Position numbers and translations under genes: made by a program
From: a virus
IMG/VR virus record: IMGVR_UViG_3300032265_002475
Span: 5-64,004 of that record
Length of the DNA stretch: 64,000 nt
Strand: one strand, 5' to 3'
Shown here: piece after piece, positions 20,087-52,609 of the stretch
How the letters are laid out: every line of letters starts with the position of its first letter
How positions within the stretch are numbered: the stretch's first letter is position 1
The notes under the pieces: model-generated
The model's database searches: none
What the model was told of the DNA's origin: nothing
Seen by the model: only the letters and a program-made list of their open reading frames with translations

Positions 20087-20446
20087 TTATTTTATTACAT
20101 TACATTCTTTAAAAAATTCTATTAAAGAATTAACTCTATTATTTAAATTGCTTTCTCCAGTCCACCACATATCTTCTAATGAACCATAGTGTGATGTATT
20201 TTTAAAAGCATTTTTAACATCTTTTTTTGTAAATCTTTTTTTTGTACCTCTAGTAATAATATCTAAAAGAACTAAAGCATTTGCTGTATCTTCATCATAA
20301 TCATCTACCCAATAATTAAAAGAAACTTCGGATTTTAGTTCTTTTAATGCCCAAGGTTGACATTCATAGACTGGATTAGCAGAAACTGGTTCTAACTCAT
20401 TTAAAATTTGTTCTCTTATTATTTGCTTTAATTGAGATTTTTTCAT
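20087..20446 (-). CDS. MKK-leader family protein (leader plus ~95-aa cargo)
   Basis: MKKSQLKQIIREQILNELEPV. Confidence 0.55.
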   Translation of the reverse strand: MKKSQLKQIIREQILNELEPVSANPVYECQPWALKELKSEVSFNYWVDDYDEDTANALVLLDIITRGTKKRFTKKDVKNAFKNTSHYGSLEDMWWTGESNLNNRVNSLIEFFKECNVIK

Positions 20447-36302: not shown

Positions 36303-37076
36303 TTATAAATTATCTAACATATTTTTTAAATTGGTACTTTTAATGCTTCCTAAAGCTTTAGTTTTAATTGGTGTTTTTCTTTCAATAGAAGCTGAAACTA
36401 TATTAGTTCCCATTAATTTATTAACGTTAGTTTTAAATTTAGGTAACCATATTTTTTCCCATTCAATTCTAGAAGCCATTAAATCTGCTTGATGGATAAT
36501 AAAAGGTAAAGCAGTTCTTGGTTTTTGTTCAGCCATAAATGTACTTAAATATTTTTTATTTGCTTCATCATATAAACCATCATGTATTTTTATAGCAATC
36601 ATTTCATTTAATGAATACTGAATGTTATTTTCTTGAAGTAAAAATAAACTACGATCAGGTACAGATACAAAATCTAACTTATCATTGAACATATAATCTT
36701 CACCTAATTTTTCTTTACGCCATTGATCAGTCTGAGGTATATAAGATTCATTTTGTTCATCACCTATTTTACCTAAATCATGATTAATTGCTGAAAATAT
36801 TAATTCTTCTAATGTGTAAGTTGAAGTGTCAGTTCCCATTTCTTCCCATACTTTATGTAATTTAAGAGCACAATCTACTACTCTTAATACGTGATCTACA
36901 TAACCGCCTGGAAATGCATTATGATATTCTTTTTTATGTGATGCTGGCATCATCATAATACGTTCTTGATGTCTGGTATAGAATTTTTCTATATTTGTTC
37001 TACGTGGTTCGGGGAATTGTTCAAAATGTTTAAACAATTTTTCCCAATTTTCTGCTATTGTTTCTGCTGTAATCAT
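36303..37076 (-). CDS. HD-domain phosphohydrolase
   Basis: VDHVLRV...INHDLGKIG...IHDGLYD (H...HD...D). Confidence 0.6.
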   Translation of the reverse strand: MITAETIAENWEKLFKHFEQFPEPRRTNIEKFYTRHQERIMMMPASHKKEYHNAFPGGYVDHVLRVVDCALKLHKVWEEMGTDTSTYTLEELIFSAINHDLGKIGDEQNESYIPQTDQWRKEKLGEDYMFNDKLDFVSVPDRSLFLLQENNIQYSLNEMIAIKIHDGLYDEANKKYLSTFMAEQKPRTALPFIIHQADLMASRIEWEKIWLPKFKTNVNKLMGTNIVSASIERKTPIKTKALGSIKSTNLKNMLDNL

Positions 37077-37869: not shown

Positions 37870-38526
37870 TTAAAATTTAAGATATTCATAATATTTTAGG
37901 GTCTTTGCTTTTCTATCATCTAAACCTATTGGTGTGGATGGTGAATTTGGATTTCCTAAATTTATAGCTTTAGATAATTTTAATATTGAAGTGTCATCCA
38001 CAATATTGCACAAATCCCACAAATGATTTCTATCAAAGAAAAATAGAGCAGATTCAAAAACAAAATCTGTTGCAACTAAATCTGGGTTAGTCATGATTTC
38101 AGGTTTGTGTAAATACTCTGAGAACGCTTTATAATTATCTTTACCAGTTAATTGTAAAGCTCCTCTACCTCTAAAATTCCAACCATCTCTCGAAGCTTCA
38201 TTGCCATTACCCATTCTATTACCATATACTCTTGAAGCAATTTTTTCAGGTTGCATTTTATATAAATCAGCCATATTTCCAGGAAAATAACTTGGGAATA
38301 TTTTTTTTAATCCATAAAATCCATCAGCTGTATAGTTTAAATTTTCAGTTAAAAGAACAAACCCACCTGTTTCGTGTGCTGTTTGACCAAAGAAATGTGC
38401 AGCTTTTTCAGGTGTCATTTTATAGAATTTAGCAGCTGCTTTTAATGTTGTTGGACCAAAAGCTCCATCTTGTTGATCAGGTGTTAAACCAATTTTTGCT
38501 TGAAAATTTTTTAAAGTAGTATTCAT
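37870..38526 (-). CDS. endolysin: peptidoglycan-binding domain plus GH19-family (chitinase-like) lysozyme
   Basis: LKNFQAKIGLTPDQQDGAFGPTTLKAA PG-binding repeat; AHFFGQTAHETGGF catalytic motif of GH19. Confidence 0.7.
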   Translation of the reverse strand: MNTTLKNFQAKIGLTPDQQDGAFGPTTLKAAAKFYKMTPEKAAHFFGQTAHETGGFVLLTENLNYTADGFYGLKKIFPSYFPGNMADLYKMQPEKIASRVYGNRMGNGNEASRDGWNFRGRGALQLTGKDNYKAFSEYLHKPEIMTNPDLVATDFVFESALFFFDRNHLWDLCNIVDDTSILKLSKAINLGNPNSPSTPIGLDDRKAKTLKYYEYLKF

Positions 38527-38738
38527 GATTTTTTATATTTGTGAAATAAGAAAGATAATCCAAAAAAGAATCCCGCTAAACAATATAATACGCAATTTGC
38601 ACCCCATAAACTTCCTGTAAGATGAATCAGGCCATATTGAACTATATCGAATCCAAAAGGGTTGAAAAACATAGCTAATCCTAAACAAATAGTTGATAAA
38701 TTTTTTTTCAATATTGTTTGCCAAGTAGTCACTGTCAT
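38523..38738 (-). CDS. holin-like small membrane protein
   Basis: 71 aa, two hydrophobic segments, 4-nt overlap with endolysin start. Confidence 0.4.
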   Translation of the reverse strand: MTVTTWQTILKKNLSTICLGLAMFFNPFGFDIVQYGLIHLTGSLWGANCVLYCLAGFFFGLSFLFHKYKKS

Positions 38739-38792: not shown

Positions 38793-39212
38793 CTATTCAT
38801 CATCTGGAAATAACTTATGAGGTATTTTCTTATTAAACTTCATTATTTTTTTAACTTCCTTAGGCTCGTCTATAACATAATATAAAGCTTCTTTACTTTC
38901 TTCCATTGCTTTTGTAGTACGATGATTACCATCTATTAAAAGTAACTCAGATAAATCTGTTTCTGGATTTTTAAAGGCAACAACTATACCAATAGGCTTA
39001 GAATAATCCATTTTAAGATTTTTAATCTTTTCAGGATCTACACTAGTAAATAATGAACTTGTTAAACGTATTTTACTTGGATTTAATTTATAGATTTTAT
39101 ATTTTATACCATCTGATTTAATTAAATCGTATGCTTTATCTACGTCAAAAATATAACGACCATGGTAAGCTTTAAAAATTTCTTCTTTAAGTATATTTAT
39201 TAATTTTATCAT
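38793..39212 (-). CDS. MIKL-leader protein with ParB/Srx-like nuclease domain
   Basis: MIKLINILKEEI; LLIDGNHRTTKA resembles the ParB DGHHR motif. Confidence 0.5.
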   Translation of the reverse strand: MIKLINILKEEIFKAYHGRYIFDVDKAYDLIKSDGIKYKIYKLNPSKIRLTSSLFTSVDPEKIKNLKMDYSKPIGIVVAFKNPETDLSELLLIDGNHRTTKAMEESKEALYYVIDEPKEVKKIMKFNKKIPHKLFPDDE

Positions 39213-40210
39213 TTGATTAATTCAGTTTTATCTTTATCATAATATAATTTTTTTAGCTTAAGACATTTAGAAATGTCTAAACTAATTAATTGATTACGTT
39301 CACAATTTAAACGTTCTAAATTAGGACATTTTGAAATGTCTAAAGTAGTTAATTGGTTATTAGCACAATATAATGTTTCTAAATTAGGACAATTAGAAAC
39401 ATCTAAAGTAGTTAATTGATTAGAATAACAGTATAATTCTTCTAAATTAGGTAAACGACCCAATCTAAGAGTAGTTAATTTATTACCACAACACCATATT
39501 TTTTCTACTCTAGGGTCATTAACTACTAAAGTTTTTAAATTTTTATCACTACAATATAATTTATTATTTTCATCTAACTTAAATTTAATTCTTTCACCAT
39601 CTACCGTAATACCGTAAATTGATTGATTAGTGGAAATAGGTTCCAATTCAGTTAATATAGTTTCTTTAATTAATTGGATTTTATCTTTATCGTAATTTAA
39701 ATATTCTAAATTAGAACAGTTTGAAACGTCTAAACTAGTTAATTGGTTATTAGCACACTTTAATATTTGTAAATTAGGACATTTAGAAATGTCTAAACTA
39801 GTTAATTTATTAGAATAACAGTCTAAATAATATAAATTGGGTAATATACCTAATTTTAGAGTAGTTAACTGATTTCTCCAACAAGATAATTTTACTAAAT
39901 TAGGCAAATTACCTAATTTTAGAGTAGTTAATTGATTATTTTCACAATTTAAAGCTTCTAAATTAGGCAAATTACCTAATTTTAGAGTAGTTAATTGATT
40001 TCCAAAGCAATTTATTTTTGTTACTCGTAAGTCATTAACTACTAGAGTTTTTAAATTTTTAAACTCACATTCTAAATTATTATATTTATTTAATTTAAAT
40101 TTAATCTTTTCACCATCTACCGTAATACCGTAAATTTGACTAGACAAGGCATATTCATACTCAGCTAAAATTTGTTCTCTAATAAGTTGTTTTAGTTCGT
40201 GTTTTTTCAT
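39209..40210 (-). CDS. MKK-leader leucine-rich-repeat protein (two fused leader-LRR cassettes)
   Basis: MKKHELKQLIREQIL; repeats NQLTTLKLGNLPNL.L.C..N; internal second leader IKETILTELEPISTNQSIYGITVDG. Confidence 0.7.
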   Translation of the reverse strand: MKKHELKQLIREQILAEYEYALSSQIYGITVDGEKIKFKLNKYNNLECEFKNLKTLVVNDLRVTKINCFGNQLTTLKLGNLPNLEALNCENNQLTTLKLGNLPNLVKLSCWRNQLTTLKLGILPNLYYLDCYSNKLTSLDISKCPNLQILKCANNQLTSLDVSNCSNLEYLNYDKDKIQLIKETILTELEPISTNQSIYGITVDGERIKFKLDENNKLYCSDKNLKTLVVNDPRVEKIWCCGNKLTTLRLGRLPNLEELYCYSNQLTTLDVSNCPNLETLYCANNQLTTLDISKCPNLERLNCERNQLISLDISKCLKLKKLYYDKDKTELIK

Positions 40211-40605
40211 TTTAAAGTAATTCGTCTATAAATATGAGGAGTGAATTTATCTGCCAATGCCCTGGCTTCCACTTCATAAAGATTGTCTTTATATCCATAT
40301 ATATTAGTTAGTTGATCATAATGCTTGTCTTTAGACAAATGTGTAAACTGCATAAAATGAACATACTCATGTATAGTAAATTTTACTAATTCTTTTTTAG
40401 TGTTAATACGCTTAGGATAAAGCGTTATTTTAGACGCTCTATACGCTAATCTTCGCCAGTCTGCGTAATGGGTATCAATACTGTAATTAATATAAAGCTT
40501 GGGTAAATTTGCGCGATAAAGTGGAAATCCTAAATAATGAGGGCACCAGTTTAAAATTTGCTTGGCTAGCTGTTTAAATTGGTGTTTATTTAAACCACGT
40601 ATCAT
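40207..40605 (-). CDS. SprT-like HExxH zinc-metallopeptidase-like protein
   Basis: TIHEYVHFMQFTH. Confidence 0.45.
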   Translation of the reverse strand: MIRGLNKHQFKQLAKQILNWCPHYLGFPLYRANLPKLYINYSIDTHYADWRRLAYRASKITLYPKRINTKKELVKFTIHEYVHFMQFTHLSKDKHYDQLTNIYGYKDNLYEVEARALADKFTPHIYRRITLK

Positions 40606-41042
40606 TTTATAAAACCTTTCTTTTGTAGTTCTTCTCTGTCTAATTTAAATGCAATATAGCCATTATTTATTCTAAAGTTATGCATTGTAAATTTGCTTTT
40701 ATATATGTTTATTAATATTTGAGCTGCAAAATCAAAATCTGCTTTTTTAACTAAACCACGTAAATCTTGTTTTATAAATTGAGGAATGTCTTTTGGTTTT
40801 AATTTTGCTAAAGTATTATTATATTCATCAGAATGTATTGATGTAAAATCTAATGGAATATCAAAATAAAAATATTTACTATCATAATCTATAGGAAATG
40901 CATCTGCATCTTTACTATTACCATACCACCAACCTTTTCCACTTATGTAATTTATACTCCATGGTCTTTTAGCACCAGAAACTGGTTCTAATTCTGTCAG
41001 AATTTGTTCTTTTATAAGCTGTTTTAATTCGGATTGTTTCAT
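40602..41042 (-). CDS. MKK-leader protein, unknown cargo
   Basis: MKQSELKQLIKEQILTELEPVSG. Confidence 0.55.
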   Translation of the reverse strand: MKQSELKQLIKEQILTELEPVSGAKRPWSINYISGKGWWYGNSKDADAFPIDYDSKYFYFDIPLDFTSIHSDEYNNTLAKLKPKDIPQFIKQDLRGLVKKADFDFAAQILINIYKSKFTMHNFRINNGYIAFKLDREELQKKGFIK

Positions 41043-41626
41043 TAGTAAAATGCTTGATATATTGTTTGACCTCTATAATTTAATTTATTAATTTCAAATC
41101 TATATACTGTACTATCAATTGGATTAACACTTAAATACAATCTGTCATCTTCATTATCATCTAACATTATTTCATCACCTATATTATAATTTGTACCTAT
41201 ATATAATTCTGATTTAGTCCAACCCTTTCTTACATAATTCCAGTTTGGGTCATTTGTATGTGGTCCTATAGCTTGTAAAGATAAATTAATTAAATCTTGT
41301 TTAACTTTAGGATCTCTTTCCATAAGTTTTGCAAGAGCAGCATTATTAGGAATACGCATAGCAGCAACAGGTTCTAATTCAATTAGAGGCTCACCTAGTG
41401 GTAAACGATTAGTTTTATTTATTATGTGAGCAGTTAATTTTTTATAAAACGCAGGATCTGTTTGTTTTTTATCTTTTACAGCAGTGTATAAGTGTTTATT
41501 ATGTTTTAATTTAGTTAAATTTGGATATAAAGTAACAAGATTTAACATTTCATCATTAGTAAATGTTCTTTGAACTTCAGCTAGAATTTGTTCTTTTATA
41601 ATTTGTTTTAATTCGTGTTTTTTCAT
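41042..41626 (-). CDS. MKK-leader protein, unknown cargo
   Basis: MKKHELKQIIKEQILAEVQ. Confidence 0.55.
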   Translation of the reverse strand: MKKHELKQIIKEQILAEVQRTFTNDEMLNLVTLYPNLTKLKHNKHLYTAVKDKKQTDPAFYKKLTAHIINKTNRLPLGEPLIELEPVAAMRIPNNAALAKLMERDPKVKQDLINLSLQAIGPHTNDPNWNYVRKGWTKSELYIGTNYNIGDEIMLDDNEDDRLYLSVNPIDSTVYRFEINKLNYRGQTIYQAFY

Positions 41627-42165
41627 CTGATTAGTTGAGTTTTGTCTTTATCGTAAGTTAAAAGATTTAAATTAGGACATTTAGAAATATCTAAAGTAGT
41701 TAATTGATTATTAGCACAATTTAAAGATAATAATTTAGGACATTTAGAAATGTCTAAAGTAGTTAATTGGTTATTAGCACACTTTAATATTTGTAAATTA
41801 GGACATTTTAAACTAGTTAAACTAGTTAATTGATTACTATCACAATTTAAATATTCTAATTTAGGTAATATACCTAATTTTAGAGTAGTTAACTGATTTC
41901 CAAAGCAATCTATTTTTGTTACTCGTGGATCATTAACTACTAGAGTTTTTAAATTTCCAGCCCGTTCAGGTAATTCATCTTCAGGATCATCTTCATCTTC
42001 ATACCACCACTCATCAAATGAGCAAAGTAATACACCATCTTTATCTAACTCTAATTTAATCTTTTCACCATCTACAGTAATACCGTAAATTTGTTTAGGT
42101 GTAGTAGCTTCTAACTCAGCCAAAATGGTTTCTTTTATAAGTTGTTTTAATTCGTGTTTTTTCAT
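41623..42165 (-). CDS. MKK-leader leucine-rich-repeat protein
   Basis: leader + IYGITVDGEKIKLEL + NQLTTLDISKCPxL repeats + YDKDKTQLIR end. Confidence 0.7.
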   Translation of the reverse strand: MKKHELKQLIKETILAELEATTPKQIYGITVDGEKIKLELDKDGVLLCSFDEWWYEDEDDPEDELPERAGNLKTLVVNDPRVTKIDCFGNQLTTLKLGILPKLEYLNCDSNQLTSLTSLKCPNLQILKCANNQLTTLDISKCPKLLSLNCANNQLTTLDISKCPNLNLLTYDKDKTQLIR

Positions 42166-42776
42166 CTGATTAATTGGGTTTTATCTTTATCATAATCTAA
42201 TTTTTGTAAATTAGGACATTTAGAAACATCTAGAGTAGTTAATTGATTATCATTGCACCATAATTGTTCTAAATTAGGACAATTAGAAACATCTAAATTA
42301 GTTAGATTATTACCATTACAATATAACCAAATTAAATTAGGACATTTAGAGACGTCTAAACTAGTTAAATTATTATCAATACAAGTTAAATAGTTTAAAC
42401 TAGAACATTTAGAGACGTTTAAACTAGTTAAATTATTATAACTACAATATAAATGTTCTAACTTAGGGCACCCAGAAACGTTTAAATTAGTTAAATTGTT
42501 ATTCATACAATTTAAATATCTTAAATTAGGTAAACGACCCAATTTAAGAGTAGTTAATTGCTTATTATCCAACTCAATTGTTTTTACCCTTGGATCATTT
42601 ATTATTAAAGTAATTAAATTGTTATGAGAATACTCTAATATACCACTTTTACTTAATTTTAATTTAACTTTTTTATCATCAACCGTAATACCGTAAATTT
42701 GTTGATTAACAGCAACAGGTTCTAACTCAGCTAGAATTTGCTCTTTGATAAGCTGTTTTAATTCGGATTTTTTCAT
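42162..42776 (-). CDS. MKK-leader leucine-rich-repeat protein
   Basis: leader + NNLTSLNVSKCSSL-type repeats. Confidence 0.7.
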   Translation of the reverse strand: MKKSELKQLIKEQILAELEPVAVNQQIYGITVDDKKVKLKLSKSGILEYSHNNLITLIINDPRVKTIELDNKQLTTLKLGRLPNLRYLNCMNNNLTNLNVSGCPKLEHLYCSYNNLTSLNVSKCSSLNYLTCIDNNLTSLDVSKCPNLIWLYCNGNNLTNLDVSNCPNLEQLWCNDNQLTTLDVSKCPNLQKLDYDKDKTQLIR

Positions 42777-43159
42777 TATTTTATATTATGGAACATTAAA
42801 AATAGAATATCATCATCATGCGTGTAATAATATAATGAATATGCTTTAGGAAAATTACCCCAATCAGTACCTACACCTTCATGAATACTCATAGTATAAA
42901 TTTGATTAGTATTTTCTAATTTAAAAAATAATTTAGCAGCTTCTAATTGTCTTTTATCCCAATTCATTTCATCACCATATTCTTTTTGAGCTTTATACCA
43001 CTCTTCAAAATTACCCCAACCTACTAAACCTGATAATGAGATTTTATCATTAAATATCATGCCAAGCATTTCCTTAGGACTTACTGGAGAATTAGAAGTG
43101 TATTCGTATTCTAATAAAACTTCTTCTTTTATAATTTGTTTTAATTCTGATTTTTTCAT
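42776..43159 (-). CDS. MKK-leader protein, unknown cargo
   Basis: MKKSELKQIIKEEVLLEYEY. Confidence 0.55.
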   Translation of the reverse strand: MKKSELKQIIKEEVLLEYEYTSNSPVSPKEMLGMIFNDKISLSGLVGWGNFEEWYKAQKEYGDEMNWDKRQLEAAKLFFKLENTNQIYTMSIHEGVGTDWGNFPKAYSLYYYTHDDDILFLMFHNIK

Positions 43160-43160
43160 T

Positions 43161-44510
43161 TTATATTATTTCTATTCCTAAATTTTCAAGAGCTTTTTCT
43201 AAATCATTAACATAGGAATTACCTAGTCTTTCTATCTGTTTTACATATGGTCCTTCACCATCCATAGCTTTTAGTATATCGTATCCATTTGCTATATTTA
43301 ATCCATATACTTTAAGAGCTAATTGTAGTAAAAATAACCATTCTTCTGTACCTGTTTCTATTTCACCATCTTCTATAATTTCTGGATATTCTTCTCTAAT
43401 CGCTTGTTCTATTTGGTGAGATTTATCTCTATTAGAAATTGGTTGTAATTCTGTCAAAGGTTTACTAAATTTTTGTTTTTTATAATCTGAAATTATACTT
43501 ATAATTTTATTAATAAGAAGTTCTACATTAATCCCTACAGAATGTTCATCTCCAGGATTTTTAGGATTTTCTCTCCTATCTATATCTAAAAATTCATTAA
43601 AATCATCTCCTGGTACTCCTGGCTTACCTTTTAATTCATTATCAAAAATAGGATCATAAAGGCAATCTACTAAATCATCATCCCAATGATGATCAAATTC
43701 GGTCCAATTATAATTAGGTCTATCTTCCTCAGGATCACCTAATAAATCTGCATTTTCGTCAATTATGTAAAAATACTTTTCATTAGGTATTCTTTTTAAA
43801 AGCATTTTAAAACTATTACGAGGAACTGCTTGTAACTCAGCTAAAATTTGTTCTTTGATGAGTTGGGTTTTATCTTTGTTATAAATAATACTTTTTGGTT
43901 CTAAATTAGGACATTTAGAAACGTCTAAACTAGTTAACTGATTATTAACACAATTTAACCAAACTAATTTAGGACATTTTGAAAGATCTAAACTAGTTAA
44001 TTGATTATTTTTACAATTTAATGTTTTTAAATTAGGGCATTTTGAAATGTCTAAACTAGTTAATTTATTAACTTGACAATCTAAAAGTGTTAAATTAGGA
44101 CATTTTGAAATATTTAAACTCTTTAATTGATTATTAGCACAATTTAACTCTTTTAAATTAGGACATTTAGAAACGTCTAAACTAGTTAACTGATTATCAT
44201 GACACCATAAATATTCTAAATTAGGTAGACTACCTAGTTTAAGAGTAGTTAATTGGTTGTGATAACAATATATTCCTTTTACTTGTGGATTATTTACTAT
44301 TAAAGTTTTTAACTCTCCAACCCATTCAGATAATTTATCTTCATCCTGATATAAATCATATGTGTAATTTAATATACCATCTTCATCTAACTCTAATTTA
44401 ATCTTTTCACCATTTACAGTAATACCGTAAATTTGTTTATTAACAGCAACAGGTTCTAACTCAGCTAAAATTTGTTCTTTTATAAGTTGTTTTAACTCAG
44501 ATTGTTTCAT
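43161..44510 (-). CDS. MKK-leader LRR protein fused in frame to a second leader plus C-terminal domain homologous to 44516-44866 and 48165-48404
   Basis: ...IIYNKDKTQLIKEQILAELQAVPRNSFKMLLKRIPNEKYFYIIDENADL... then YPEIIEDGEIETGTEEW. Confidence 0.65.
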   Translation of the reverse strand: MKQSELKQLIKEQILAELEPVAVNKQIYGITVNGEKIKLELDEDGILNYTYDLYQDEDKLSEWVGELKTLIVNNPQVKGIYCYHNQLTTLKLGSLPNLEYLWCHDNQLTSLDVSKCPNLKELNCANNQLKSLNISKCPNLTLLDCQVNKLTSLDISKCPNLKTLNCKNNQLTSLDLSKCPKLVWLNCVNNQLTSLDVSKCPNLEPKSIIYNKDKTQLIKEQILAELQAVPRNSFKMLLKRIPNEKYFYIIDENADLLGDPEEDRPNYNWTEFDHHWDDDLVDCLYDPIFDNELKGKPGVPGDDFNEFLDIDRRENPKNPGDEHSVGINVELLINKIISIISDYKKQKFSKPLTELQPISNRDKSHQIEQAIREEYPEIIEDGEIETGTEEWLFLLQLALKVYGLNIANGYDILKAMDGEGPYVKQIERLGNSYVNDLEKALENLGIEII

Positions 44511-44515
44511 TTAAT

Positions 44516-44866
44516 TTATTTTTTATAATCTGAAATTATTTGTTTAATTTTATTAACAAGAAGCATTTCATTTTTTCCAGTACCTTTTTTTGTAGGATTT
44601 TCTATTCTATCCATTTCTTGGAACTCTTGATAATCATCTCCTAGTACCCCAGGCTTGCCTTTTAATTCATTGTTAAAAATAGGATCATAAAAGTAATCTA
44701 CTAAATCACTATCATCTAAATCTAAATCTGCATTTTCGTCAATTATGTAAAAATACTTTTCATTAGGTATTCTTTTTAAAAGTGCTTCAAAACTATCATT
44801 AGAAATTGGCTGTAATTCGGCCAAAATAGTTTCTTTTATAAGTTGTTTTAATTCGTGTTTTTTCAT
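44516..44866 (-). CDS. MKK-leader protein (start corrected to internal ATG 44864-44866)
   Basis: listed ORF has a spurious 46-codon 5' extension; MKKHELKQLIKETILAELQPISNDSFEALLKRIPNEKYFYIIDENADL. Confidence 0.55.
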   Translation of the reverse strand: MKKHELKQLIKETILAELQPISNDSFEALLKRIPNEKYFYIIDENADLDLDDSDLVDYFYDPIFNNELKGKPGVLGDDYQEFQEMDRIENPTKKGTGKNEMLLVNKIKQIISDYKK

Positions 44867-44869: not shown

Positions 44870-45245
44870 TATTTTTGTTTTATTATAAATATGTATATAG
44901 TTTGTTCGATATGAAAAGAGTTGTAAAAAGAAGATTTTTGATTTTATGAAAGAGAGCGCAAAATGGGTAAAGCGGAATTGCGCATTTGTGTTATGGACGT
45001 GCAACGTTAGGTGTTATATAAGTATATAGGCCATCGATGTGAGGAGATGTGGGAGGGCTGAAAATACATCACATTCACACCCATGTACAGCCCAGATATG
45101 TATGGAAAACGACGCATATGGGATTCTACATATACGTACCGCGTATTATTATTCCTTCGTATATCGTACATAGTACATACGGAATAAAAAGCAGAAAAAA
45201 AGAGAACATTTCTGTTCCCTTTAATTCTGTTTTTTCATCTTAAAT
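44870..45245. other. GC-richer noncoding island between early and cassette regions (candidate regulatory region / origin / ncRNA)
   Basis: no credible ORF; gcgcaa...ttgcgc inverted repeat, GTAC-rich repeats, ggagatgtgggaggg G-tract. Confidence 0.4.
45186..45220 (-). terminator. rho-independent terminator after the AT-hook gene
   Basis: minus strand GGGAACAGAAATGTTCTC hairpin followed by TTTTTTTCTGCTTTTT. Confidence 0.5.
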
Positions 45246-45246: not shown

Positions 45247-45669
45247 TTAAGCTACATTTTCAGATGTAACAGTTTGTGTTGTAACAACTTCAGGTGCTGG
45301 TTTTGTCATTTTTGGTCTACCTCTTTTAGGTACATACCCATTTGCAATTTTAGCTGCATATTCAGCTTCTCTAAGTTGTTTTTTACTTCCGGGTACAATT
45401 GGTCTACCTAATCTAAATGTACCGCTTGCTTTTCTTTCTGTACGTGCAGCTTCTCTAATTTGTCTTGCACTTCCTGGTACAATTGGTCTACCTAATTGTT
45501 TTTGAGGTGTTGCAACTGTATTACCTACTGTTACTTCACTTACATTTACTACTGTTGTTTCAGGTACAGTTACTTCAGGTGTAATTGTTTCAGGTGTAGT
45601 TACTTCAGGGTTAACTACTTCATTTGTGTTAACTAATGCTTTGTTTGTTTTTTGTTTTTTGTTTGACAT
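45247..45669 (-). CDS. AT-hook DNA-binding protein with internal LGRPIVPGS repeats
   Basis: KRGRPKM AT-hook; two LGRPIVPGSxxQxREA repeats. Confidence 0.45.
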   Translation of the reverse strand: MSNKKQKTNKALVNTNEVVNPEVTTPETITPEVTVPETTVVNVSEVTVGNTVATPQKQLGRPIVPGSARQIREAARTERKASGTFRLGRPIVPGSKKQLREAEYAAKIANGYVPKRGRPKMTKPAPEVVTTQTVTSENVA

Positions 45670-45715
45670 GATGTTTTGTTTTTGTTTGTTAATTTATTTT
45701 GTTATTTATTTATTT

Positions 45716-45756
45716 TAATGACATAAAGATAAGTTAAAATTTATGAATGGCCAAAC
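45716..45756 (-). promoter_or_regulatory. early promoter element (family A/B)
   Basis: ttaatgacataaagata...gccaaa. Confidence 0.55.
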
Positions 45757-45794
45757 TATACTTTTATTTATTATTTTATTGTTATTATTACTTA

Positions 45795-45835
45795 TTAATG
45801 ACATAAAGATAATTATGAATAAATGAATAGCCAAA
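45795..45835 (-). promoter_or_regulatory. early promoter element (tandem second copy)
   Basis: ttaatgacataaagataattatgaataaatgaatagccaaa. Confidence 0.5.
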
Positions 45836-45840
45836 CCATT

Positions 45841-46125
45841 TTAATCTTCTTTAGCTGTTTCTAAAGCGGCTGTATATGCACCTTTATTTATATTATCCAT
45901 TCCCATCCCTTCATATTTTAACAATGCATTACAAATATATTTATGGATTCCATTAATGTTTTTTATTTCTGCAATTGCTTTAACAATACTATTTTTGTCA
46001 GTATCATTAATGTTTTTATCATTAACAAAATCCGTAATGTATTTTTTTGCTACATTTACATCCTTCATTTTAAATACCCCATTACTGATCTGTTCAAAGA
46101 TTGATTTTAAATACTTTTGTTTCAT
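45841..46125 (-). CDS. small hypothetical protein
   Basis: ORF behind promoter element. Confidence 0.5.
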   Translation of the reverse strand: MKQKYLKSIFEQISNGVFKMKDVNVAKKYITDFVNDKNINDTDKNSIVKAIAEIKNINGIHKYICNALLKYEGMGMDNINKGAYTAALETAKED

Positions 46126-46150
46126 TTTTTATGTTGTTATTTTTAATAAT

Positions 46151-46191
46151 TTAATGACATAAAGATAATTATGAAATTATGAATTGCCAAA
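46151..46191 (-). promoter_or_regulatory. early promoter element
   Basis: motif. Confidence 0.55.
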
Positions 46192-46197
46192 CTTACT

Positions 46198-46350
46198 TTA
46201 CCACCTTAAAACAGCATTTGGATTGTTAGTGTTATGTTTATGAAATCTTGCACATTTACCTTTATGTGTGGTAGTACATGAGGCAAATATAATAATGCAA
46301 AAACAAATACCAATAATAATAATTAAAGCGTTTAAATAATTTTGTTTCAT
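46198..46350 (-). CDS. small putative lipoprotein (50 aa), not in ORF track
   Basis: ATG 46348-46350; MKQNYLNALIIIIGICFCIIIFASC signal with lipobox-like FASC; own promoter element upstream. Confidence 0.35.
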   Translation of the reverse strand: MKQNYLNALIIIIGICFCIIIFASCTTTHKGKCARFHKHNTNNPNAVLRW

Positions 46351-46361
46351 TTTTTAATAAT

Positions 46362-46407
46362 TTAATGACATAAAGATAAAAATGAATAGCTGAATAGCCA
46401 AGCCAAA
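46362..46407 (-). promoter_or_regulatory. early promoter element
   Basis: motif. Confidence 0.5.
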
Positions 46408-46434
46408 CAAAAATGGGGAGCTTTTAACTCCCCA
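46404..46434 (-). terminator. rho-independent terminator after gene 46450-46860
   Basis: minus strand GGGGAG-TTAAAAG-CTCCCC then ATTTTTGTTTGG. Confidence 0.6.
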
Positions 46435-46449
46435 CACCATGTAACATAA

Positions 46450-46860
46450 CTAACCAATCATTTCATTTACAATCTTATCTAACATTTCACTAACATTACC
46501 GTCCGTTTCTATAGTGGCCATAATTATTTTGGTCTGAGCGTCCTGATATGATACATTATTTACATGTACTTGTATGTCAGGTGCAGTATCACTTGCTTGA
46601 GTATTCCACCAAATATTACAATTGTAACCATTTTGTTTTAATTTAAAACTCAATGTTTCTCTTAATATGTTTAATTCTGAATTGATTTTATTACTACGTT
46701 GATTTATTTTTTTCAATTCATCAATTAACTTTTTAGCTTTGTTTGTTTCATTTTGTTTAGCAATAAATACTTTAGATGCAGTTGATGCTTTCACATTAGC
46801 ACGTCTCATCACTTCTTGACTTAATACATTTAACTGTAGATTACTTAATTTTTTAGCCAT
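46450..46860 (-). CDS. hypothetical protein
   Basis: ORF. Confidence 0.5.
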   Translation of the reverse strand: MAKKLSNLQLNVLSQEVMRRANVKASTASKVFIAKQNETNKAKKLIDELKKINQRSNKINSELNILRETLSFKLKQNGYNCNIWWNTQASDTAPDIQVHVNNVSYQDAQTKIIMATIETDGNVSEMLDKIVNEMIG

Positions 46861-46881
46861 GTTTATTATTGTTTTTGTTTT

Positions 46882-46922
46882 TTAATGCCATAAAGATAAG
46901 GCTGAATTTATGAAATGCCAAA
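46882..46922 (-). promoter_or_regulatory. early promoter element
   Basis: ttaatgccataaagataaggctgaatttatgaaatgccaaa. Confidence 0.5.
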
Positions 46923-47073
46923 TCTGCTTTTTAATCTGTTTTTTAAATCCCGTTATTTAATCTGTTTTTTAGGTGTGGTTTACTGTGGTTTTGCTTGCGC
47001 TGAATTTTGGCTGCCTTAACCTAAACACATTGATTAATGCCTGAGTGGATTAGATGATTTTTGGCGCGTTTAC

Positions 47074-47265
47074 TTACCAATTTTCATCCTGTGCTTCATC
47101 GTCTGGTGATTCGAGGGCAAACTCATCAGGCACATCCTCAAATGAATCAATTAATGTTTCAATGTAATCAGCAGGATCAGGTGCTTCATAAGCTTCAATA
47201 ATAATTTCAGCTAATTGCTCTTGAGTATAGTTAAGTAAGTTTTGTTTAATAATGTTTATATTCAT
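47074..47265 (-). CDS. small highly acidic protein
   Basis: 63 aa; Asp/Glu-rich C-terminal half. Confidence 0.45.
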   Translation of the reverse strand: MNINIIKQNLLNYTQEQLAEIIIEAYEAPDPADYIETLIDSFEDVPDEFALESPDDEAQDENW

Positions 47266-47483
47266 TATAATGTTTGTTTTAATAATGGTTTAAATTGGTT
47301 TACTATTTGTTCTGATGTGTTTTTTGCTTTACGAACCATATCTTCAAAACAATATGAACCCGTTTCGGCAAATGTGGTTTTTATAGTATCGTTCCACAAC
47401 GAGTTAGAAAATTTTAATTTATTGTCTATTGAAGTTAGATCCCTTACTAATTGTTCTTTTGCTAATGTTGATTTACGTTTCAT
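47265..47483 (-). CDS. small hypothetical protein
   Basis: ORF. Confidence 0.45.
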   Translation of the reverse strand: MKRKSTLAKEQLVRDLTSIDNKLKFSNSLWNDTIKTTFAETGSYCFEDMVRKAKNTSEQIVNQFKPLLKQTL

Positions 47484-47502
47484 CTGTTTTTTAATTTTGT
47501 TA

Positions 47503-47543
47503 TTAATGCCATAAAGATAAAATATTTTTTGTGAAAAACCAAA
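47503..47543 (-). promoter_or_regulatory. early promoter element
   Basis: motif. Confidence 0.5.
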
Positions 47544-47544
47544 T

Positions 47545-47750
47545 TTTCCTAAGAAGGTATATATTTATTATATGAGGACTGGACGTGTCCGTGCTGAATG
47601 TATATGCGATCCCGCCCCTCCTACTCCACCCACTCATTTACTGTTTTCCACATACACTTTATCTTACTTTTAATTTATTACCTCCCACTCCCAATGTGTA
47701 TATAGCTCGCTACATATTTCCAACTATTACATTTATTTTATTTTGTATTT
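47545..47750. other. C-rich (plus) / G-tract-rich (minus) noncoding island
   Basis: cccgcccctcctactccacccactc ... cctcccactccc in a ~30% GC genome; no ORF. Confidence 0.4.
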
Positions 47751-48154
47751 TATGAATTACGTGCCTTTAAAGATAGTTCATATAATTTATCTAACGTTTC
47801 ATGTGTGAATGTTTGGCACCCTACCGTAATATTATCTTTGGTGATTGTTGCTTTGTAATTGCTATTTAACGTGAGTTCTTTTTTAAATTGTTCTTTACCT
47901 TTACCTTTCATATATTGGGTAAATTCTTCTAATGTTATCCATCTATATTTAGATTCTTCTTTAGATATAGAACTCATTTGTGTTATTATATCACCATCCC
48001 AACAGTAATATGGAAATTGAGGATCTATAAGTTTATTTATCATTCCTCCATAAATAGATACTTCACAGTCAATAGCGAGTTTTAGTAATTCTTTTACTTC
48101 TGTGATTGATAATTCATGGTTAATTGCTACTTTGTCTTGAAAGTTATGTGTCAT
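47750..48154 (-). CDS. hypothetical protein
   Basis: ORF. Confidence 0.5.
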   Translation of the reverse strand: MTHNFQDKVAINHELSITEVKELLKLAIDCEVSIYGGMINKLIDPQFPYYCWDGDIITQMSSISKEESKYRWITLEEFTQYMKGKGKEQFKKELTLNSNYKATITKDNITVGCQTFTHETLDKLYELSLKARNS

Positions 48155-48164
48155 TATTTTTTGT

Positions 48165-48404
48165 TTATAATGTTTCTATTGCTAATTCTCCAAGTACAGA
48201 CATTAATTCAATGTGTGCATCATCACTTAATAGTTTAGTTCCATTAAATAGGTCTTGATATGTCACAGTTACTCCATGTATTTTATTTGCTTCTATAACT
48301 AAATCAAACCATTGTTCTGTACCCATTTCAACTTCACCGTCATGAACTAATTCAGGATAATGTTTTACAATTACGTTTTTGATTTTTTGTTGTGTGTTTG
48401 CCAT
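48165..48404 (-). CDS. small protein homologous to the C-terminal domain of 43161-44510
   Basis: KHYPELVHDGEVEMGTEQWFDL vs EEYPEIIEDGEIETGTEEWLFL. Confidence 0.5.
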   Translation of the reverse strand: MANTQQKIKNVIVKHYPELVHDGEVEMGTEQWFDLVIEANKIHGVTVTYQDLFNGTKLLSDDAHIELMSVLGELAIETL

Positions 48405-48419
48405 TGTTATTTTATTTAT

Positions 48420-48460
48420 TTAATGACATAAAGATAAGGTGGAAAAAATGAATAGCCAAA
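48420..48460 (-). promoter_or_regulatory. early promoter element (identical subfamily ggtggaaaaaatgaatagccaaa)
   Basis: motif. Confidence 0.55.
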
Positions 48461-48793
48461 TTAATTTTCATTATTTAATTCAAATTGTACACGTTCATTA
48501 AATAATGATTGCACATCTTCAAACGGTTGTGTCATCATTAATTGACGTAACATTTGTTCCTCCATATTCATTTCTTTAAGTAAATGTTGTGTTTTTTCAC
48601 CTGTTATTTCAGGATTAGATGATCTACACCATTCAGCATATAATAATTCAGCTTTATCATGTGGGGTTATGCCTTTTAATTCTAAATAATCATCATATTT
48701 TAGATTATGATTAATTACATTTCCTAATTCTACCAATATTAATTTTTTAACATTAGGTTCATTTAATAATTTTTTTAATGTTATATTTTTCAT
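48461..48793 (-). CDS. hypothetical protein
   Basis: ORF. Confidence 0.5.
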   Translation of the reverse strand: MKNITLKKLLNEPNVKKLILVELGNVINHNLKYDDYLELKGITPHDKAELLYAEWCRSSNPEITGEKTQHLLKEMNMEEQMLRQLMMTQPFEDVQSLFNERVQFELNNEN

Positions 48794-48796
48794 TTT

Positions 48797-49126
48797 TTAG
48801 TTATTATTTGATGTTGTTTCTTCAGTTACGTTTTCGTCAAGTACTTCTTCAATAATTGATTCAATTTTACTCAAATCTATCGAAACATCACTAAGTACTA
48901 TTGTATTATCACGTTCTAAATCAAAACTAGCTGAATCCATATCAACTACATCATCACTATCTAATTGGTTTAGTCTATTACTAATAACATAACGTATCTC
49001 ATCCGCTAATTCTTGTGTAATGCAGCTTTCACGTTTTACTTCATTAAGTAATTTTATGATATCATCTTTAGTGAAAATTGAACTTGGTGAGTCTTGTACT
49101 GTTTGTTTTAATTCTTGTAATTTCAT
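48797..49126 (-). CDS. acidic hypothetical protein
   Basis: ORF; Asp/Glu-rich. Confidence 0.5.
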   Translation of the reverse strand: MKLQELKQTVQDSPSSIFTKDDIIKLLNEVKRESCITQELADEIRYVISNRLNQLDSDDVVDMDSASFDLERDNTIVLSDVSIDLSKIESIIEEVLDENVTEETTSNNN

Positions 49127-49147
49127 AACTTTTATTATTTTTATTAT

Positions 49148-49188
49148 TTAATGACATAAAGATAAGGTGGAAAAAATGAATAGCCAAA
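49148..49188 (-). promoter_or_regulatory. early promoter element
   Basis: motif. Confidence 0.55.
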
Positions 49189-49226
49189 TTTATTTTAAAT
49201 TCCAAATTTTTCATTTTGTTACTTAT

Positions 49227-50048: not shown

Positions 50049-50064
50049 AACTTTTATTATTTTA

Positions 50065-50102
50065 TTAACATAAAGATAAGGTGGAAAAAATGAATAGCCA
50101 AA
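50065..50102 (-). promoter_or_regulatory. early promoter element
   Basis: motif. Confidence 0.55.
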
Positions 50103-50231
50103 TTTTATCTAAATTCCAAATTCGATTACTAAATATAAAACACACGCTACAAAAGCTAGTGCTACTATTACTAATCCTGTGTCAATTGGTGCCCAATATT
50201 GTTTCATTGTATTTTATGTTAATTAAAATAG

Positions 50232-50294
50232 TAGGCAAAGTGAGAATTGAACTCACATTATCGCAATATCACACAAGTAAGGTGCTATTTACCC
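50232..50294 (-). ncRNA. short tRNA-like element (acceptor + T-arm, lacks a canonical D-arm)
   Basis: rc GGGTAAA..GTGAG-TTCAATT-CTCAC-TTTGCCT-A: T-arm plus 7-bp acceptor with two G-U pairs; only 63 nt. Confidence 0.2.
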
Positions 50295-50492
50295 GACCGT
50301 ATAAAAAACTACATCTGCCTTCTAAATGGGATACCTTGTCTCAAAAGTGTTATCCAGTACATTAACCCAAACCACTCAAATTTTAGAACTTTGAGAACAA
50401 TAGCCCCACCTCATCACAAAGGGTACTGAATAATGTTATTACTATTATTTGTTCAGTGTTAATCAGATGTAGTTTTAAAGAACGTTTTTGTG

Positions 50493-50582: not shown

Positions 50583-50605
50583 TACCATTTTTCATAGGTG
50601 AATGA

Positions 50606-51833: not shown

Positions 51834-51841
51834 TTTATTAT

Positions 51842-52305: not shown

Positions 52306-52322
52306 GTTGTTATTTTATTTTA

Positions 52323-52600: not shown

Positions 52601-52609
52601 ATTTATAAT

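What the first reader, a model, noticed from the sequence alone, without database searches (positions are those of the whole stretch)
39209..44510. In-frame fusions of whole cassettes, consistent with recombination at the leader-coding repeat
Each LRR cassette ends YDKDKTQLI(R/K). In 43161-44510 this runs straight into EQILAELQAVPRNSFKMLLKRIPNEKYFYIIDENADL, the leader and cargo of the 44516-44866 type, with no stop or ATG. In 39209-40210 a second leader-LRR cassette (IKETILTELEPISTNQSIYGITVDG) follows the first in frame. The C-terminal domain of 43161-44510 also exists as a stand-alone early gene (48165-48404). The leader repeat therefore appears to act as a module junction, producing shuffling and fusion.
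Basis: seen in the sequence. Interest (0 to 1): 0.65.

Follow-up and report, generated by a model that had tools for sequence, protein, structure and literature searches.

The report
Leader-tagged phage cargo cassettes that fuse
A novel aquatic phage carries a row of small genes that all begin with the same 20-residue tag, and comparison with related phages shows whole genes being joined or separated at that tag; the tag is probably a T4-style address label and cutting site for loading proteins into the virus head.

Summary
Between 44866 and 38793 (minus strand) ten tightly packed genes form an array. Eight start with MK(K/Q)(H/S)ELKQ(L/I)IKE.IL.E(L/V/Y)(E/Q), followed by unrelated cargo (LRR solenoids and novel domains).

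Three ORFs are in-frame multi-cassette fusions:
- 43161-44510: LRR~X~Y
- 39209-40210: LRR~LRR
- 41042-41626: V~V2

Both LRR fusions lack exactly the 32 nt that hold the stop/ATG overlap and the first leader codons, so they are not missed stops.

Related metagenomic genomes (L246/L248, L251, L249) carry the same modules in other states: X~Y unfused, LRR~V~T and LRR~V~V2 fused, and a five-module polyprotein. One deletion has its crossover inside an 11-nt exact repeat of the leader tail.

The leader is kept by selection on the peptide (pN/pS 0.24), not by recent gene conversion. Every internal junction keeps [L/I]-x-E. Homologous cargo carries interchangeable leader types in different relatives.

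The lineage (closest cultured relative: Flavobacterium phage immuto) has a T4-type head module with a gp21-like protease. The array sits behind a late-promoter-like motif.

Best reading, inferred and not shown: T4-like capsid-targeting/processing propeptides on injected proteins, with fusions cut apart at retained sites. This would be a new variant of a known kind.

The parts
44516..44866 (-). W1: leader + cargo X (116 aa), first gene of the array
   Evidence: ORF. X is homologous to the middle of W2 and to P0001-P0023.
44884..44892 (-). ATATTTATA late-promoter-like motif, 26 nt upstream of W1
   Evidence: 11 of 14 coding-strand copies lie 12-41 nt upstream of starts of baseplate/tail, lysis and leader-bearing genes. 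The motif is conserved before array genes in L246 and L249.
43161..44510 (-). W2: 449-aa fusion, leader + LRR ~ X' ~ Y
   Evidence: Unfused X~Y orthologues are P0001/P0002.
43824..43865 (-). W2 junction 1 (QLIKEQILAELQAV): the LRR tail joined to leader codon 8 of the X-Y gene
   Evidence: 32-nt gap relative to the unfused junctions; BLASTP alignment starts at QLIKE.
43428..43475 (-). W2 junction 2 (QKFSKPLTELQPISNR) between X' and Y
   Evidence: It is the only segment with pLDDT below 50 in an otherwise confident AF2 model.
42776..43159 (-). W3: leader + cargo U (127 aa)
   Evidence: orthologue R3 in L246.
42162..42776 (-). W4: leader + LRR (204 aa)
41623..42165 (-). W5: leader + LRR (180 aa)
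41042..41626 (-). W6: leader + V ~ V2 (194 aa), with an internal junction PLIELEPVAA at 41360-41395
   Evidence: (family D20). V matches R4 residues 158-244. V2 matches the C-terminus of P0035.
40602..41042 (-). W7: leader + T (146 aa). T is fused into LRR~V~T in L246/L248.
   Evidence: 76% identity, E 4e-74.
40207..40605 (-). W8: conserved 132-aa HExxH...E protein embedded in the array. It has no leader, only a weak resemblance (QFKQLAKQIL).
   Evidence: The L249 homologue gives a sub-threshold SprT-like hit (E 0.0023).
39209..40210 (-). W9: 333-aa fusion, leader + LRR ~ LRR, with its junction at 39623-39676
   Evidence: Analogous LRR~LRR ORFs are R7 and R8 in L246 and one in L251.
38793..39212 (-). 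W10: short leader variant (MIKLINILKEEIF) + cargo with an LLIDGNHR (ParB-like) motif; last cassette before the lysis genes
   Evidence: The L249 orthologue carries a full type-A-like leader, MKLSQIKQLIKEELF.
48165..48404 (-). Leaderless paralogue of domain Y, behind an early-type promoter
20087..20446 (-). Isolated type-A leader gene outside the array (MKKSQLKQIIREQILNELEPVSAN)

Best explanation
The region is a hyperplastic locus of a novel AT-rich myovirus of the immuto-like lineage, which has a T4-type head. It holds an array of late-expressed cassettes.

Each cassette has three parts:
- a roughly 20-residue amphipathic leader;
- a short tail containing [L/I]-x-E;
- a variable cargo domain (LRR binders and novel folds).

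Shown here:
- Cassettes are gained, lost and fused in frame at the leader. One route is deletion of the 32 nt that hold the stop/start and the leader head. The other is cassette-sized deletion or insertion with crossovers inside leader-tail repeats.
- Related genomes carry the same modules in alternative fused and unfused states.

Inferred:
- The leader works like the T4 capsid targeting sequence. Its N-terminal half docks the protein to the scaffolding core of the prohead, and its [L/I]-x-E tail is cut by the gp21-type prohead protease.
- The cargo is therefore packaged in the head and injected with the DNA, probably to bind or disable host defence or other host proteins.
- A fused ORF needs only one targeting head. 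Because every internal junction keeps the cleavage tail in a flexible linker, a fusion is cut back into its modules at maturation. This makes fusion nearly neutral and explains why polyproteins of 2-5 modules are common.
For: Anatomy and fusions:
- Basic anatomy and the fusions.
- Alternative arrangements in relatives: L246/L248 have X~Y | N | U | LRR~V~T | HExxH | LRR | LRR~LRR | LRR~LRR | ParB-like. L251 has N | U | LRR~LRR | LRR~V~V2 | T. L249 has a 662-aa five-module ORF, reproduced at 99% identity in L250.
- Recombination footprint in an 11-nt leader-tail repeat; cassette-sized indel between the window and L246.

Selection on the peptide and the junction motif:
- Leader codons 2-17 give pS 0.54, pN 0.13.
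- A logo of 64 distinct leaders loses all conservation right after L-x-E.
- All 12 or more internal junctions in three genomes keep [LI]-x-E plus that genome's own tail (LELEPV, EVEAVS or EIKVEPP), while the leader head is lost or scrambled. Background frequency of [LI].E is 0.016 per residue.
- The junction LTELQPIS is the only disordered segment between two confidently folded domains.

Interchangeable leaders:
- Homologous cargo X carries three different leader types in different relatives, all ending in [LI]-x-E.

Link to the head:
- Most IMG/VR contigs with this leader are immuto-like phages. Leader genes lie between portal and protease, between protease and scaffold, directly after the major capsid protein, or just before the terminase.
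- The immuto protease is 36% identical to T4 gp21 (E 4e-32).

Timing and packaging logic:
- The array, the lysis genes, baseplate/tail genes and other leader genes share an ATATTTATA motif 12-41 nt upstream of their starts.
- A leaderless Y paralogue is early-expressed. This parallels packaged Alt versus early ModA/ModB in T4 (PMC5512222).

T4 precedent (PMC9026906, PMC3012670):
- gp21 cuts after L/I-X-E.
- The 10-residue CTS has a targeting part and a processing part.
- Proteins fused to IPIII or to its CTS are packaged.
Against: - No protease, scaffold or capsid gene lies in the 64-kb window, so a gp21 homologue in this genome is inferred from synteny with relatives only.
- There is no proteomic or cleavage evidence for any member of this leader family.
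- There is no alignable homology to the T4 CTS MKTYQEFIAE.
- The residue after the presumed cleavage Glu is L/V/Y/I here, not the small residue seen in the T4 IP, gp22 and gp23 sites.
- A leader-like N-terminus also occurs on a conserved small protein next to the baseplate gp25-like gene (32442-32789). This could point to a tail-related rather than a head-related role.
- About 20% of the window's ORFs (21 of 106) carry one of the leader types. That would be a large packaged proteome for a genome of about 150 kb.
Confidence: 0.55

Rival explanations
1. The leader and junctions are cut by the HExxH protein encoded inside the array (40207-40605), not by the prohead protease. On this reading the array is a split version of a polyvalent protein with its own zincin peptidase, processed before packaging or after injection.
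For: - An HExxH...E protein is conserved inside the arrays of all three lineages (89% and 65% identity).
- In L249 it lies directly next to the ParB-like cassette. This is reminiscent of P1 DdrB, which combines a ParB-like domain with a zincin peptidase (PMC5512222).
- The L249 homologue gives a sub-threshold SprT-like hit.
Against: - Only 4 homologues exist among 5.8 billion proteins, while the leader occurs in many dozens of contigs and in immuto, which lack this protein. It cannot be the general processing enzyme.
- No Pfam hit reaches threshold, there is no PDB sequence match, and the AF2 model is unusable (pLDDT 44).
Confidence: 0.1
2. The leader is an uncleaved structural or interaction helix, for example for oligomerisation, docking to a tail/baseplate component or binding a common partner in the infected cell. 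The fusions are then simply tolerated multi-domain proteins.
For: - The peptide is an amphipathic helix.
- A similar N-terminus sits on a conserved protein beside the baseplate genes in the window, in immuto and in all relatives.
- There is no direct evidence of cleavage or packaging.
Against: - Internal junctions lose the helical head but keep the [LI]-x-E tail in a disordered linker.
- Unrelated-looking leader types are interchangeable on the same cargo.
- Leader genes are embedded in the T4-type head-core module at the positions of T4 gp67/gp68.
Confidence: 0.2
3. The repeat matters only at the DNA level, as a recombination or translation-initiation element. The peptide itself has no function.
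For: - Crossovers do fall in leader repeats.
- AT-rich MKK... starts are favourable for translation.
Against: - Synonymous sites are about half saturated while amino acids are conserved (pN/pS 0.24).
- The peptide is conserved across distant contigs that use different codons.
- Internal copies without a start codon retain the tail motif.
Confidence: 0.05
4. The fused ORFs are sequencing or assembly artefacts.
For: The window is a single assembly, and the LRR~X~Y fusion is so far unique to it.
Against: - The junctions lack exactly 32 nt and stay in frame.
- The shared sequence at the junction is far shorter than an assembler's k-mer.
- The fused modules are only about 80% identical to their paralogues.
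- Equivalent fusions are reproduced in independent JGI and ENA assemblies.
Confidence: 0.02

Closest known systems
T4 internal proteins (IPI, IPII, IPIII and more than 30 variants) with the capsid targeting sequence, in the hypervariable IP loci of T-even phages
   Same: - A short conserved N-terminal peptide sits on otherwise unrelated small proteins.
- The peptide ends in L/I-x-E, the gp21 cleavage motif.
- The genes lie in hypervariable loci that differ between related phages, here even next to the endolysin gene, as ipII/ipIII do in T4.
- The lineage has a gp21 homologue and a T4-type head module.
- Artificial fusions to IPIII or its CTS are packaged and processed (PMC9026906, PMC3012670, PMC2839356).
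   Different: - There is no sequence homology to MKTYQEFIAE.
- The leader is twice as long.
- At least four interchangeable leader types exist.
- Natural multi-cassette polyproteins with retained internal sites are not a described feature of the T4 IP loci.
- The cargo includes LRR solenoids.
- Packaging and cleavage are untested.
Polyvalent proteins of phages and conjugative elements (Iyer et al. 2017, PMC5512222), including the phage P1 Dar/DdrB system
   Same: - Several unrelated effector-type domains are strung in one phage polypeptide, in a late-gene context.
- Delivery with the DNA and release of domains by proteolysis are predicted.
- A ParB-like cassette and a zincin-like HExxH protein lie in the same locus.
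   Different: - Modules here are separated by a recurrent leader-derived linker and also exist as single leader-tagged genes.
- The typical polyvalent-protein domains are not detected inside the fused ORFs (Pfam finds only LRR).
- The ORFs are much smaller (2-5 modules, at most 662 aa).
Propeptide-bearing inner-body and ejection protein paralogues of giant phages (phiKZ, 201phi2-1, SPN3US)
   Same: Families of head proteins carry conserved N-terminal propeptides that are removed after x-x-E by a gp21-related protease. N-termini stay identical while the mature parts diverge (PMC5694885).
   Different: In the giant phages the motif is A/S/G-x-E, the propeptides are often more than 100 residues long, and the proteins are not organised as a cassette array with in-frame fusions.
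Polymorphic toxin loci (CdiA-CT, Rhs) with orphan cassettes
   Same: A conserved junction motif demarcates swappable C-terminal modules, and recombination at that motif exchanges cargo.
   Different: Here there is no toxin/immunity pairing and no secretion-system context. The conserved element is N-terminal to each cargo and is probably a packaging/processing tag.

Membership tests
T4-type capsid targeting sequence / internal proteins | A short N-terminal peptide is shared by otherwise unrelated proteins of one phage | tested here: met
   - 8 array genes plus 20087-20446 share MK..ELKQ.IKE.IL.E.
- The coding pattern occurs 8 times, against 0 by chance.
T4-type capsid targeting sequence / internal proteins | The peptide ends with the gp21 cleavage motif L/I-x-E | tested here: met
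   - Conservation in the logo of 64 leaders ends at L-x-E.
- All leaders and all internal junctions in the window, L246 and L249 contain [LI]-x-E.
- The motif definition comes from PMC9026906.
T4-type capsid targeting sequence / internal proteins | The phage encodes a gp21-type prohead protease and a scaffolding core | tested here: inconclusive
   - None is present in the window.
- Both are present in the closest cultured relative, immuto (protease 36% identical to T4 gp21, E 4e-32).
- Both are present in IMG/VR relatives that carry the leader.
T4-type capsid targeting sequence / internal proteins | Sequence homology to the T4 CTS (MKTYQEFIAE) | tested here: not met
   T4 N-termini were read from NC_000866. 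Only the hydrophobic-hydrophobic-A-E ending resembles KEQILAE; there is no alignable homology.
T4-type capsid targeting sequence / internal proteins | The proteins are found in the virion, are cleaved at the leader and are injected | not testable with these tools
   This needs virion proteomics or packaging assays.
T4-type capsid targeting sequence / internal proteins | The genes lie in hypervariable loci that differ between related phages | tested here: met
   - immuto and the baseplate relatives lack the array at the syntenic site.
- L246, L251 and L249 differ in cassette content and in fusion state.
Polyvalent proteins (Iyer et al. 2017) | Two or more unrelated effector domains in one phage polypeptide | tested here: met
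   - W2 is LRR + X + Y.
- The L249 662-aa ORF has five modules.
Polyvalent proteins (Iyer et al. 2017) | Presence of the characteristic domains (zincin MPTase, DdrB-like ParB, ART, etc.) within the polypeptide | tested here: not met
   - Pfam and PHROGs find only LRR in the fused ORFs.
- The HExxH protein and the ParB-like cassette are separate genes, supported only by motifs and one sub-threshold SprT-like hit.
Leucine-rich repeat proteins (Pfam LRR_4) | Tandem LxxLxLxxN repeats that match the LRR profiles | tested here: met
   PF12799 gives E 1.7e-31, 1.1e-13, 6.5e-17 and 5.9e-25 for the four LRR ORFs.

The most novel reading that the evidence does not exclude
Aquatic immuto-like phages of Bacteroidota use a previously undescribed set of interchangeable N-terminal tags. 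There are at least four types:
- MKKSELKQIIKEEI..L.E
- MIKLTNLLKE
- M.NFDLKKFL.E.KLLKE
- F.RMQ.LAG..E

On this reading the tags both address proteins to the prohead core and provide the protease site. Because the site survives at internal junctions, cassettes can be strung into polyproteins that are cut apart in the head. The result would be a natural, evolvable 'beads on a string' system for loading LRR binders and novel effectors for injection.
Probability: 0.4. Interest if true: 0.75.

Novelty: new variant of a known kind. Interest (0 to 1): 0.62.

Why it matters
- Scope of the CTS principle. If the leader is a targeting/processing tag, the capsid-targeting-sequence principle extends from T-even coliphages to a large, mostly uncultured group of environmental phages. 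At least 591 IMG/VR contigs share the baseplate gene.
- Prediction of packaged proteins. About one fifth of these phages' ORFans would be flagged as candidate packaged, injected proteins, giving a simple sequence rule for predicting them.
- Gene fusion and fission. It would explain why fusion and fission are so free at these loci: processing makes fusion neutral.
- A practical tag. It would offer a natural tag for loading foreign proteins into phages of Bacteroidota.
- LRR cargo. The LRR cargo suggests injected binder proteins whose targets, possibly host defence components, are unknown.

Independently of the mechanism, the locus gives a clean natural example of module shuffling with mapped breakpoints.

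Tried and rejected
- GenBank phages. A megablast of the array found nothing. A tblastn with a 21-aa consensus leader also found nothing, probably because the query is short and of low complexity.
- Endolysin as an anchor for relatives. This gave 80 loci, but they are non-syntenic T4-like phages without leader arrays, so the endolysin is itself mobile.
- Exact look-up of window-edge proteins. Nothing was found, so the window could not be extended to the head module.
- Pattern for the window-specific tail KEQIL[AT]EL[EQ]P. There were no IMG/VR hits and only GC-rich chance hits in JGI metagenomes.
- Relatives of the 116-aa X protein in IMG/VR. None were found.
- Structure of the HExxH protein. 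The model is unusable (pLDDT 44), and there is no PDB sequence match.
- Fold search with the confident X~Y model. There was no significant match in PDB or BFVD, so the cargo function remains unknown.
- Pfam on the large ORFans with leader types B and D (213-13353). Nothing was found.
- Rfam on the noncoding stretch before the array and on the whole window. Nothing reached threshold.
- Literature search for the leader peptides as strings. No paper was found.
- P0038 from the profile search is a false positive, a repetitive eukaryote-like protein.

Full report
**What the window is**

The window is 26% GC, with essentially all genes on the minus strand. It has no near match among GenBank phages.

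The baseplate wedge protein (30185-32038) has at least 591 relatives at 65-70% identity in IMG/VR, on contigs of up to about 149 kb. The closest cultured relative is Flavobacterium phage vB_FspM_immuto (160 kb, 46.6% identity), followed by Microcystis phage Mel-JY01.

immuto is syntenic with the window from the phosphohydrolase (36303-37076) through the baseplate and tail genes to the primase and exonuclease. It has a T4-type head module: gp20-like portal, gp21-like protease, gp22-like scaffold and gp23-like capsid protein. The protease is 36% identical to T4 gp21 (E 4e-32).

By synteny, the head module of the window's phage should lie just beyond coordinate 1. It is not in the window.

**The observation**

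From 44866 down to 38793, ten abutting or overlapping genes form an array. Eight begin with MK(K/Q)(H/S)ELKQ(L/I)I(K/R)E.(I/V)L.E(L/V/Y)(E/Q). The cargo after the leader is:
- LRR solenoids in four ORFs (Pfam LRR_4, E down to 1.7e-31);
- domains with no family match in the others.

The leader-coding pattern occurs 8 times, against 0 in shuffles.

The three fused ORFs:
- The 449-aa ORF 43161-44510 is leader + LRR, then QLIKEQILAELQAV + X' (59% identical to the 44516-44866 protein from its residue 8, E 4e-37), then KPLTELQPISN + Y. Y is 38% identical to the stand-alone 48165-48404 protein (E 1e-10).
- The 333-aa ORF 39209-40210 is two LRR cassettes joined at QLIKETILTELEP.
- 41042-41626 has an internal PLIELEPVAA whose DNA matches the leader tails at 83-86% (family D20).

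**Not missed stop codons**

The two fused LRR junctions were aligned with the three unfused LRR-to-next-gene junctions. In both fusions exactly 32 nt are missing: GATGAAAAAACACGAATTAAAACAACTTATAA. This stretch is the AGA-TGA/ATG overlap plus the first leader codons.

The LRR tail ...DKDKTQLI is thereby joined to leader residue 11 (K) onward. The frame difference of 2 nt between neighbouring genes is compensated.

The fused modules are only about 80% identical in DNA to their paralogues, so the events are not recent assembly collapses.

**Related genomes with other arrangements**

A homology search with X'~Y found free 238-239-aa genes that start with their own complete leader: MKRSELKQLIKEHILAELQPVLRNNF... 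(P0001 and P0002, 79% identity over the full length).

The contig of P0002 (L246, JGI) and an independent ENA contig (L248, 134.5 kb) are close syntenic relatives. Their HExxH protein is 89% identical and their ParB-like cassette 87% identical to the window's.

Cassette order in the four genomes (| separates genes, ~ marks an in-frame junction):

| Genome | Cassette order |
|---|---|
| Window | X \| LRR~X~Y \| U \| LRR \| LRR \| V~V2 \| T \| HExxH \| LRR~LRR \| ParB-like |
| L246/L248 | X~Y \| N \| U \| LRR~V~T \| HExxH \| LRR \| LRR~LRR \| LRR~LRR \| ParB-like |
| L251 (ENA; also found in a second JGI sample) | N \| U \| LRR~LRR \| LRR~V~V2 \| T |
| L249 (more distant, 159 kb) | several leader genes plus a 662-aa ORF of five modules |

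Supporting details:
- T is 76% identical between the free gene of the window and the fused module of L246 (E 4e-74). V is 42% identical (E 9e-19).
- The L249 modules are separated by IIDEIKAQAP, PLNEIKVEPP, NLYEIKVEPP and PLKEIKVETK. The ORF is reproduced at 99% identity in a second sample.

**A mapped crossover**

In L251 the V~V2 junction reads ...AATATAGCC GAATTAGTATC TGTTGCTACT.... The leader of the next gene, T, reads ...CTGACA GAATTAGTATC AGTTTCTGGT....

L246 reads ...AATATAGCC GAATTAGTATC AGTTTCTGGT.... The flanks are 94% identical on the left and 92% on the right. About 386 nt are missing: V2, the stop and the leader head. The same cassette-sized indel separates the window from L246.

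The leader tail is therefore a real recombination junction. Both variants exist in the same sampling campaign (KRAE22).

**How the leader is maintained**

Among the nine type-A leaders of the window, codons 2-17 give pS 0.54 and pN 0.13 (pN/pS 0.24). The peptide is under purifying selection, and the DNA copies are not being homogenised.

A DNA pattern scan of IMG/VR recovered the same peptide at the N-terminus of about 70 different proteins. The parts of the peptide that were not imposed by the pattern are also conserved (MKKS......EEI.KVL.E). Conservation stops immediately after L-x-E.

A profile of the window's leaders finds 51 cluster representatives among 1.84 billion proteins at E <= 0.001. 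Of these, 46 have their best match starting at residue 1, and 13 have two or more matched stretches. Several are two-cassette ORFs with a complete internal leader.

**The junction motif**

All internal junctions in the window (4), L246 (4) and the L249 polyprotein (4) keep [L/I]-x-E followed by the tail typical of that genome's own N-terminal leaders: LELEPV/LQPIS, EVEAVS or EIKVEPP. The leader head, in contrast, is deleted or scrambled. In the window's proteins [LI].E occurs at 0.016 per residue.

An AlphaFold model of X'~Y built from 24 homologues is confident (mean pLDDT 86). It shows two helical domains. Its only segment with pLDDT below 50 is the junction LTELQPIS.

**Interchangeable leaders**

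Homologues of cargo X carry different leaders in different relatives:
- type A;
- MNNNFDLKKFLAEGKLLKE (type C);
- MNKEFKRMMELAGLAE(M/I)K(I/V)N.P (type D).

Y also occurs behind type D, and behind internal leaders in longer proteins. The ParB-like cassette has the short form MIKLINILKEEIF (type B) in the window and MKLSQIKQLIKEELF in L249. Type B is therefore a shortened type A.

In the window, 21 of 106 ORFs carry one of these four N-termini. All four types contain [L/I]-x-E.

**Link to the head and to late expression**

Most leader-carrying IMG/VR loci are immuto-like. In them, small type-A leader genes lie in the following places:
- between portal and protease (L060);
- between protease and scaffold (L016, L059);
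- directly after the capsid gene (L009, three in tandem);
- just before the terminase (L023, L060).

immuto has one between portal and protease. These are the positions of the T4 prohead-core genes 67 and 68.

Scaffold N-termini in the lineage (M...LLKEAIAEAK) resemble that of T4 gp22, MLKEQLIAEAQK.

On the coding strand the motif ATATTTATA occurs 14 times, and 11 of these copies lie 12-41 nt upstream of a start. The genes behind it are the first array gene, the LRR~LRR gene, the holin, four baseplate/tail-module genes and several other leader genes. The motif recurs before array genes in L246 and L249.

Early genes, including the leaderless Y paralogue, instead carry TTTGGC-N~20-TATCTTTATG.

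**Interpretation**

In T4, gp21 cuts after L/I-X-E. The 10-residue CTS of the internal proteins has an N-terminal targeting part and a C-terminal processing part. Foreign proteins fused to IPIII or its CTS are packaged and delivered (PMC9026906). The IP loci are hypervariable, with more than 30 variants that share only the CTS (PMC3012670, PMC2839356).

The array matches this logic point by point, although the peptide is not homologous to the T4 CTS. The most economical reading has three parts:
- The leader head targets the protein to the prohead core.
- The [L/I]-x-E tail is the protease site.
- A fused ORF rides in on one head and is cut at the retained tails.

What is shown: the anatomy, the alternative arrangements, the breakpoints, the selection on the peptide, the linker disorder and the genomic association with T4-type head genes.

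What is inferred: packaging, cleavage, injection and the late timing.

**Rivals**

1. A dedicated peptidase. The conserved HExxH...E protein inside the array could be such an enzyme (sub-threshold SprT-like hit), as in polyvalent proteins and P1 DdrB (PMC5512222). However, it has only four homologues in 5.8 billion proteins, whereas the leader is widespread. At most it is a cargo or a local accessory.
2. An uncleaved interaction helix. This cannot be excluded, because a conserved baseplate-adjacent protein has a similar N-terminus. It does not explain why junctions keep only the tail.
3. A purely DNA-level role. The pN/pS result contradicts this.
4. An artefact. The 32-nt in-frame gaps and the independent assemblies exclude this.

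**Novelty**

Cassette exchange at a conserved targeting leader is known from the T-even IP loci. Multi-domain injected proteins are known as polyvalent proteins.

New here:
- the leader families themselves, which no paper in the searchable library contains as strings;
- their interchangeability;
- the natural polyproteins whose junctions retain the putative cleavage tail;
- LRR cargo;
- mapped fusion breakpoints in environmental variants.

I rate this a new variant of a known kind.

Noticed in passing
window 45680-63110 (for example 48420-48459, 49148-49187, 52600-52690): At least 15 copies of an early-promoter-like repeat, TTTGGC(T/A)(T/A)TTCA-N~12-TATCTTTATG(T)CATTAA, lie in front of small ORFan genes. 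The -33 TTTG and -7 TAnnTTTG-like boxes fit Bacteroidota sigma-A promoters and hence a Flavobacteriia-type host. The arrangement is analogous to the PeSL cassettes of T4-type hyperplastic regions.
   Followed up: partly
window, minus strand: 44892, 40235, 38783, 35323, 32801, 30171, 23048, 17884, 15921, 5646, 4022: ATATTTATA lies 12-41 nt upstream of the starts of baseplate/tail, lysis and leader-bearing genes (11 of 14 coding-strand copies). It is probably the late promoter of this phage group (compare the T4 late promoter TATAAATA).
   Followed up: partly
window 44870-45200: A noncoding stretch of about 300 nt, richer in GC, lies between a terminator-like hairpin (after gene 45247-45669) and the first array gene. 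It is full of GTAC/GTATG/CATA-type short repeats and has no Rfam match. The equivalent place in L249 holds simple repeats and Ns.
   Followed up: partly
window 40207-40605: A conserved 132-aa protein with HEYVH...YEVEA (a zincin-like motif) is embedded in the array. It has only four homologues in public data, all in related arrays. Its fold could not be predicted.
   Followed up: partly
window 213-13353, 15526-15894, 38793-39212: Three further recurrent N-terminal motifs occur on ORFans between the replication genes and the expected terminase:
- MIKLTNLLKE (8 genes)
- M.DNFDLKGFL (1 gene)
- F.RMQ(E/K)LAG (2 genes)

The same motifs occur in immuto and in many metagenomic relatives.
   Followed up: partly
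window 32442-32789: A small protein is conserved directly upstream of the gp25-like baseplate gene in all relatives. Its N-terminus is leader-like (MKAIEFKKFIKAAVKEAIQEELKEILLE). Its role is unknown, and it bears on whether the leader is head-specific.
   Followed up: no
window 45247-45669: A 140-aa protein has a repeated GRPIVPGS..Q(I/L)REA unit and a KRGRPK (AT-hook-like) motif. It is conserved just upstream of the array in L246.
   Followed up: no
window 37870-38738: The endolysin (PHROG 181, glycoside hydrolase 19-like) and holin next to the array are mobile. The endolysin's closest relatives sit in non-syntenic T4-like phages, and syntenic relatives use a different lysin (Peptidase_M15 in L249 and L118).
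   Followed up: partly
window 1-110: At the left edge a gene starts with MNKKIVIVGAGVAGINAATKL... (a Rossmann/FAD-type N-terminus) behind a TATCTTTATAAAAG promoter-like box. It runs off the window.
   Followed up: no
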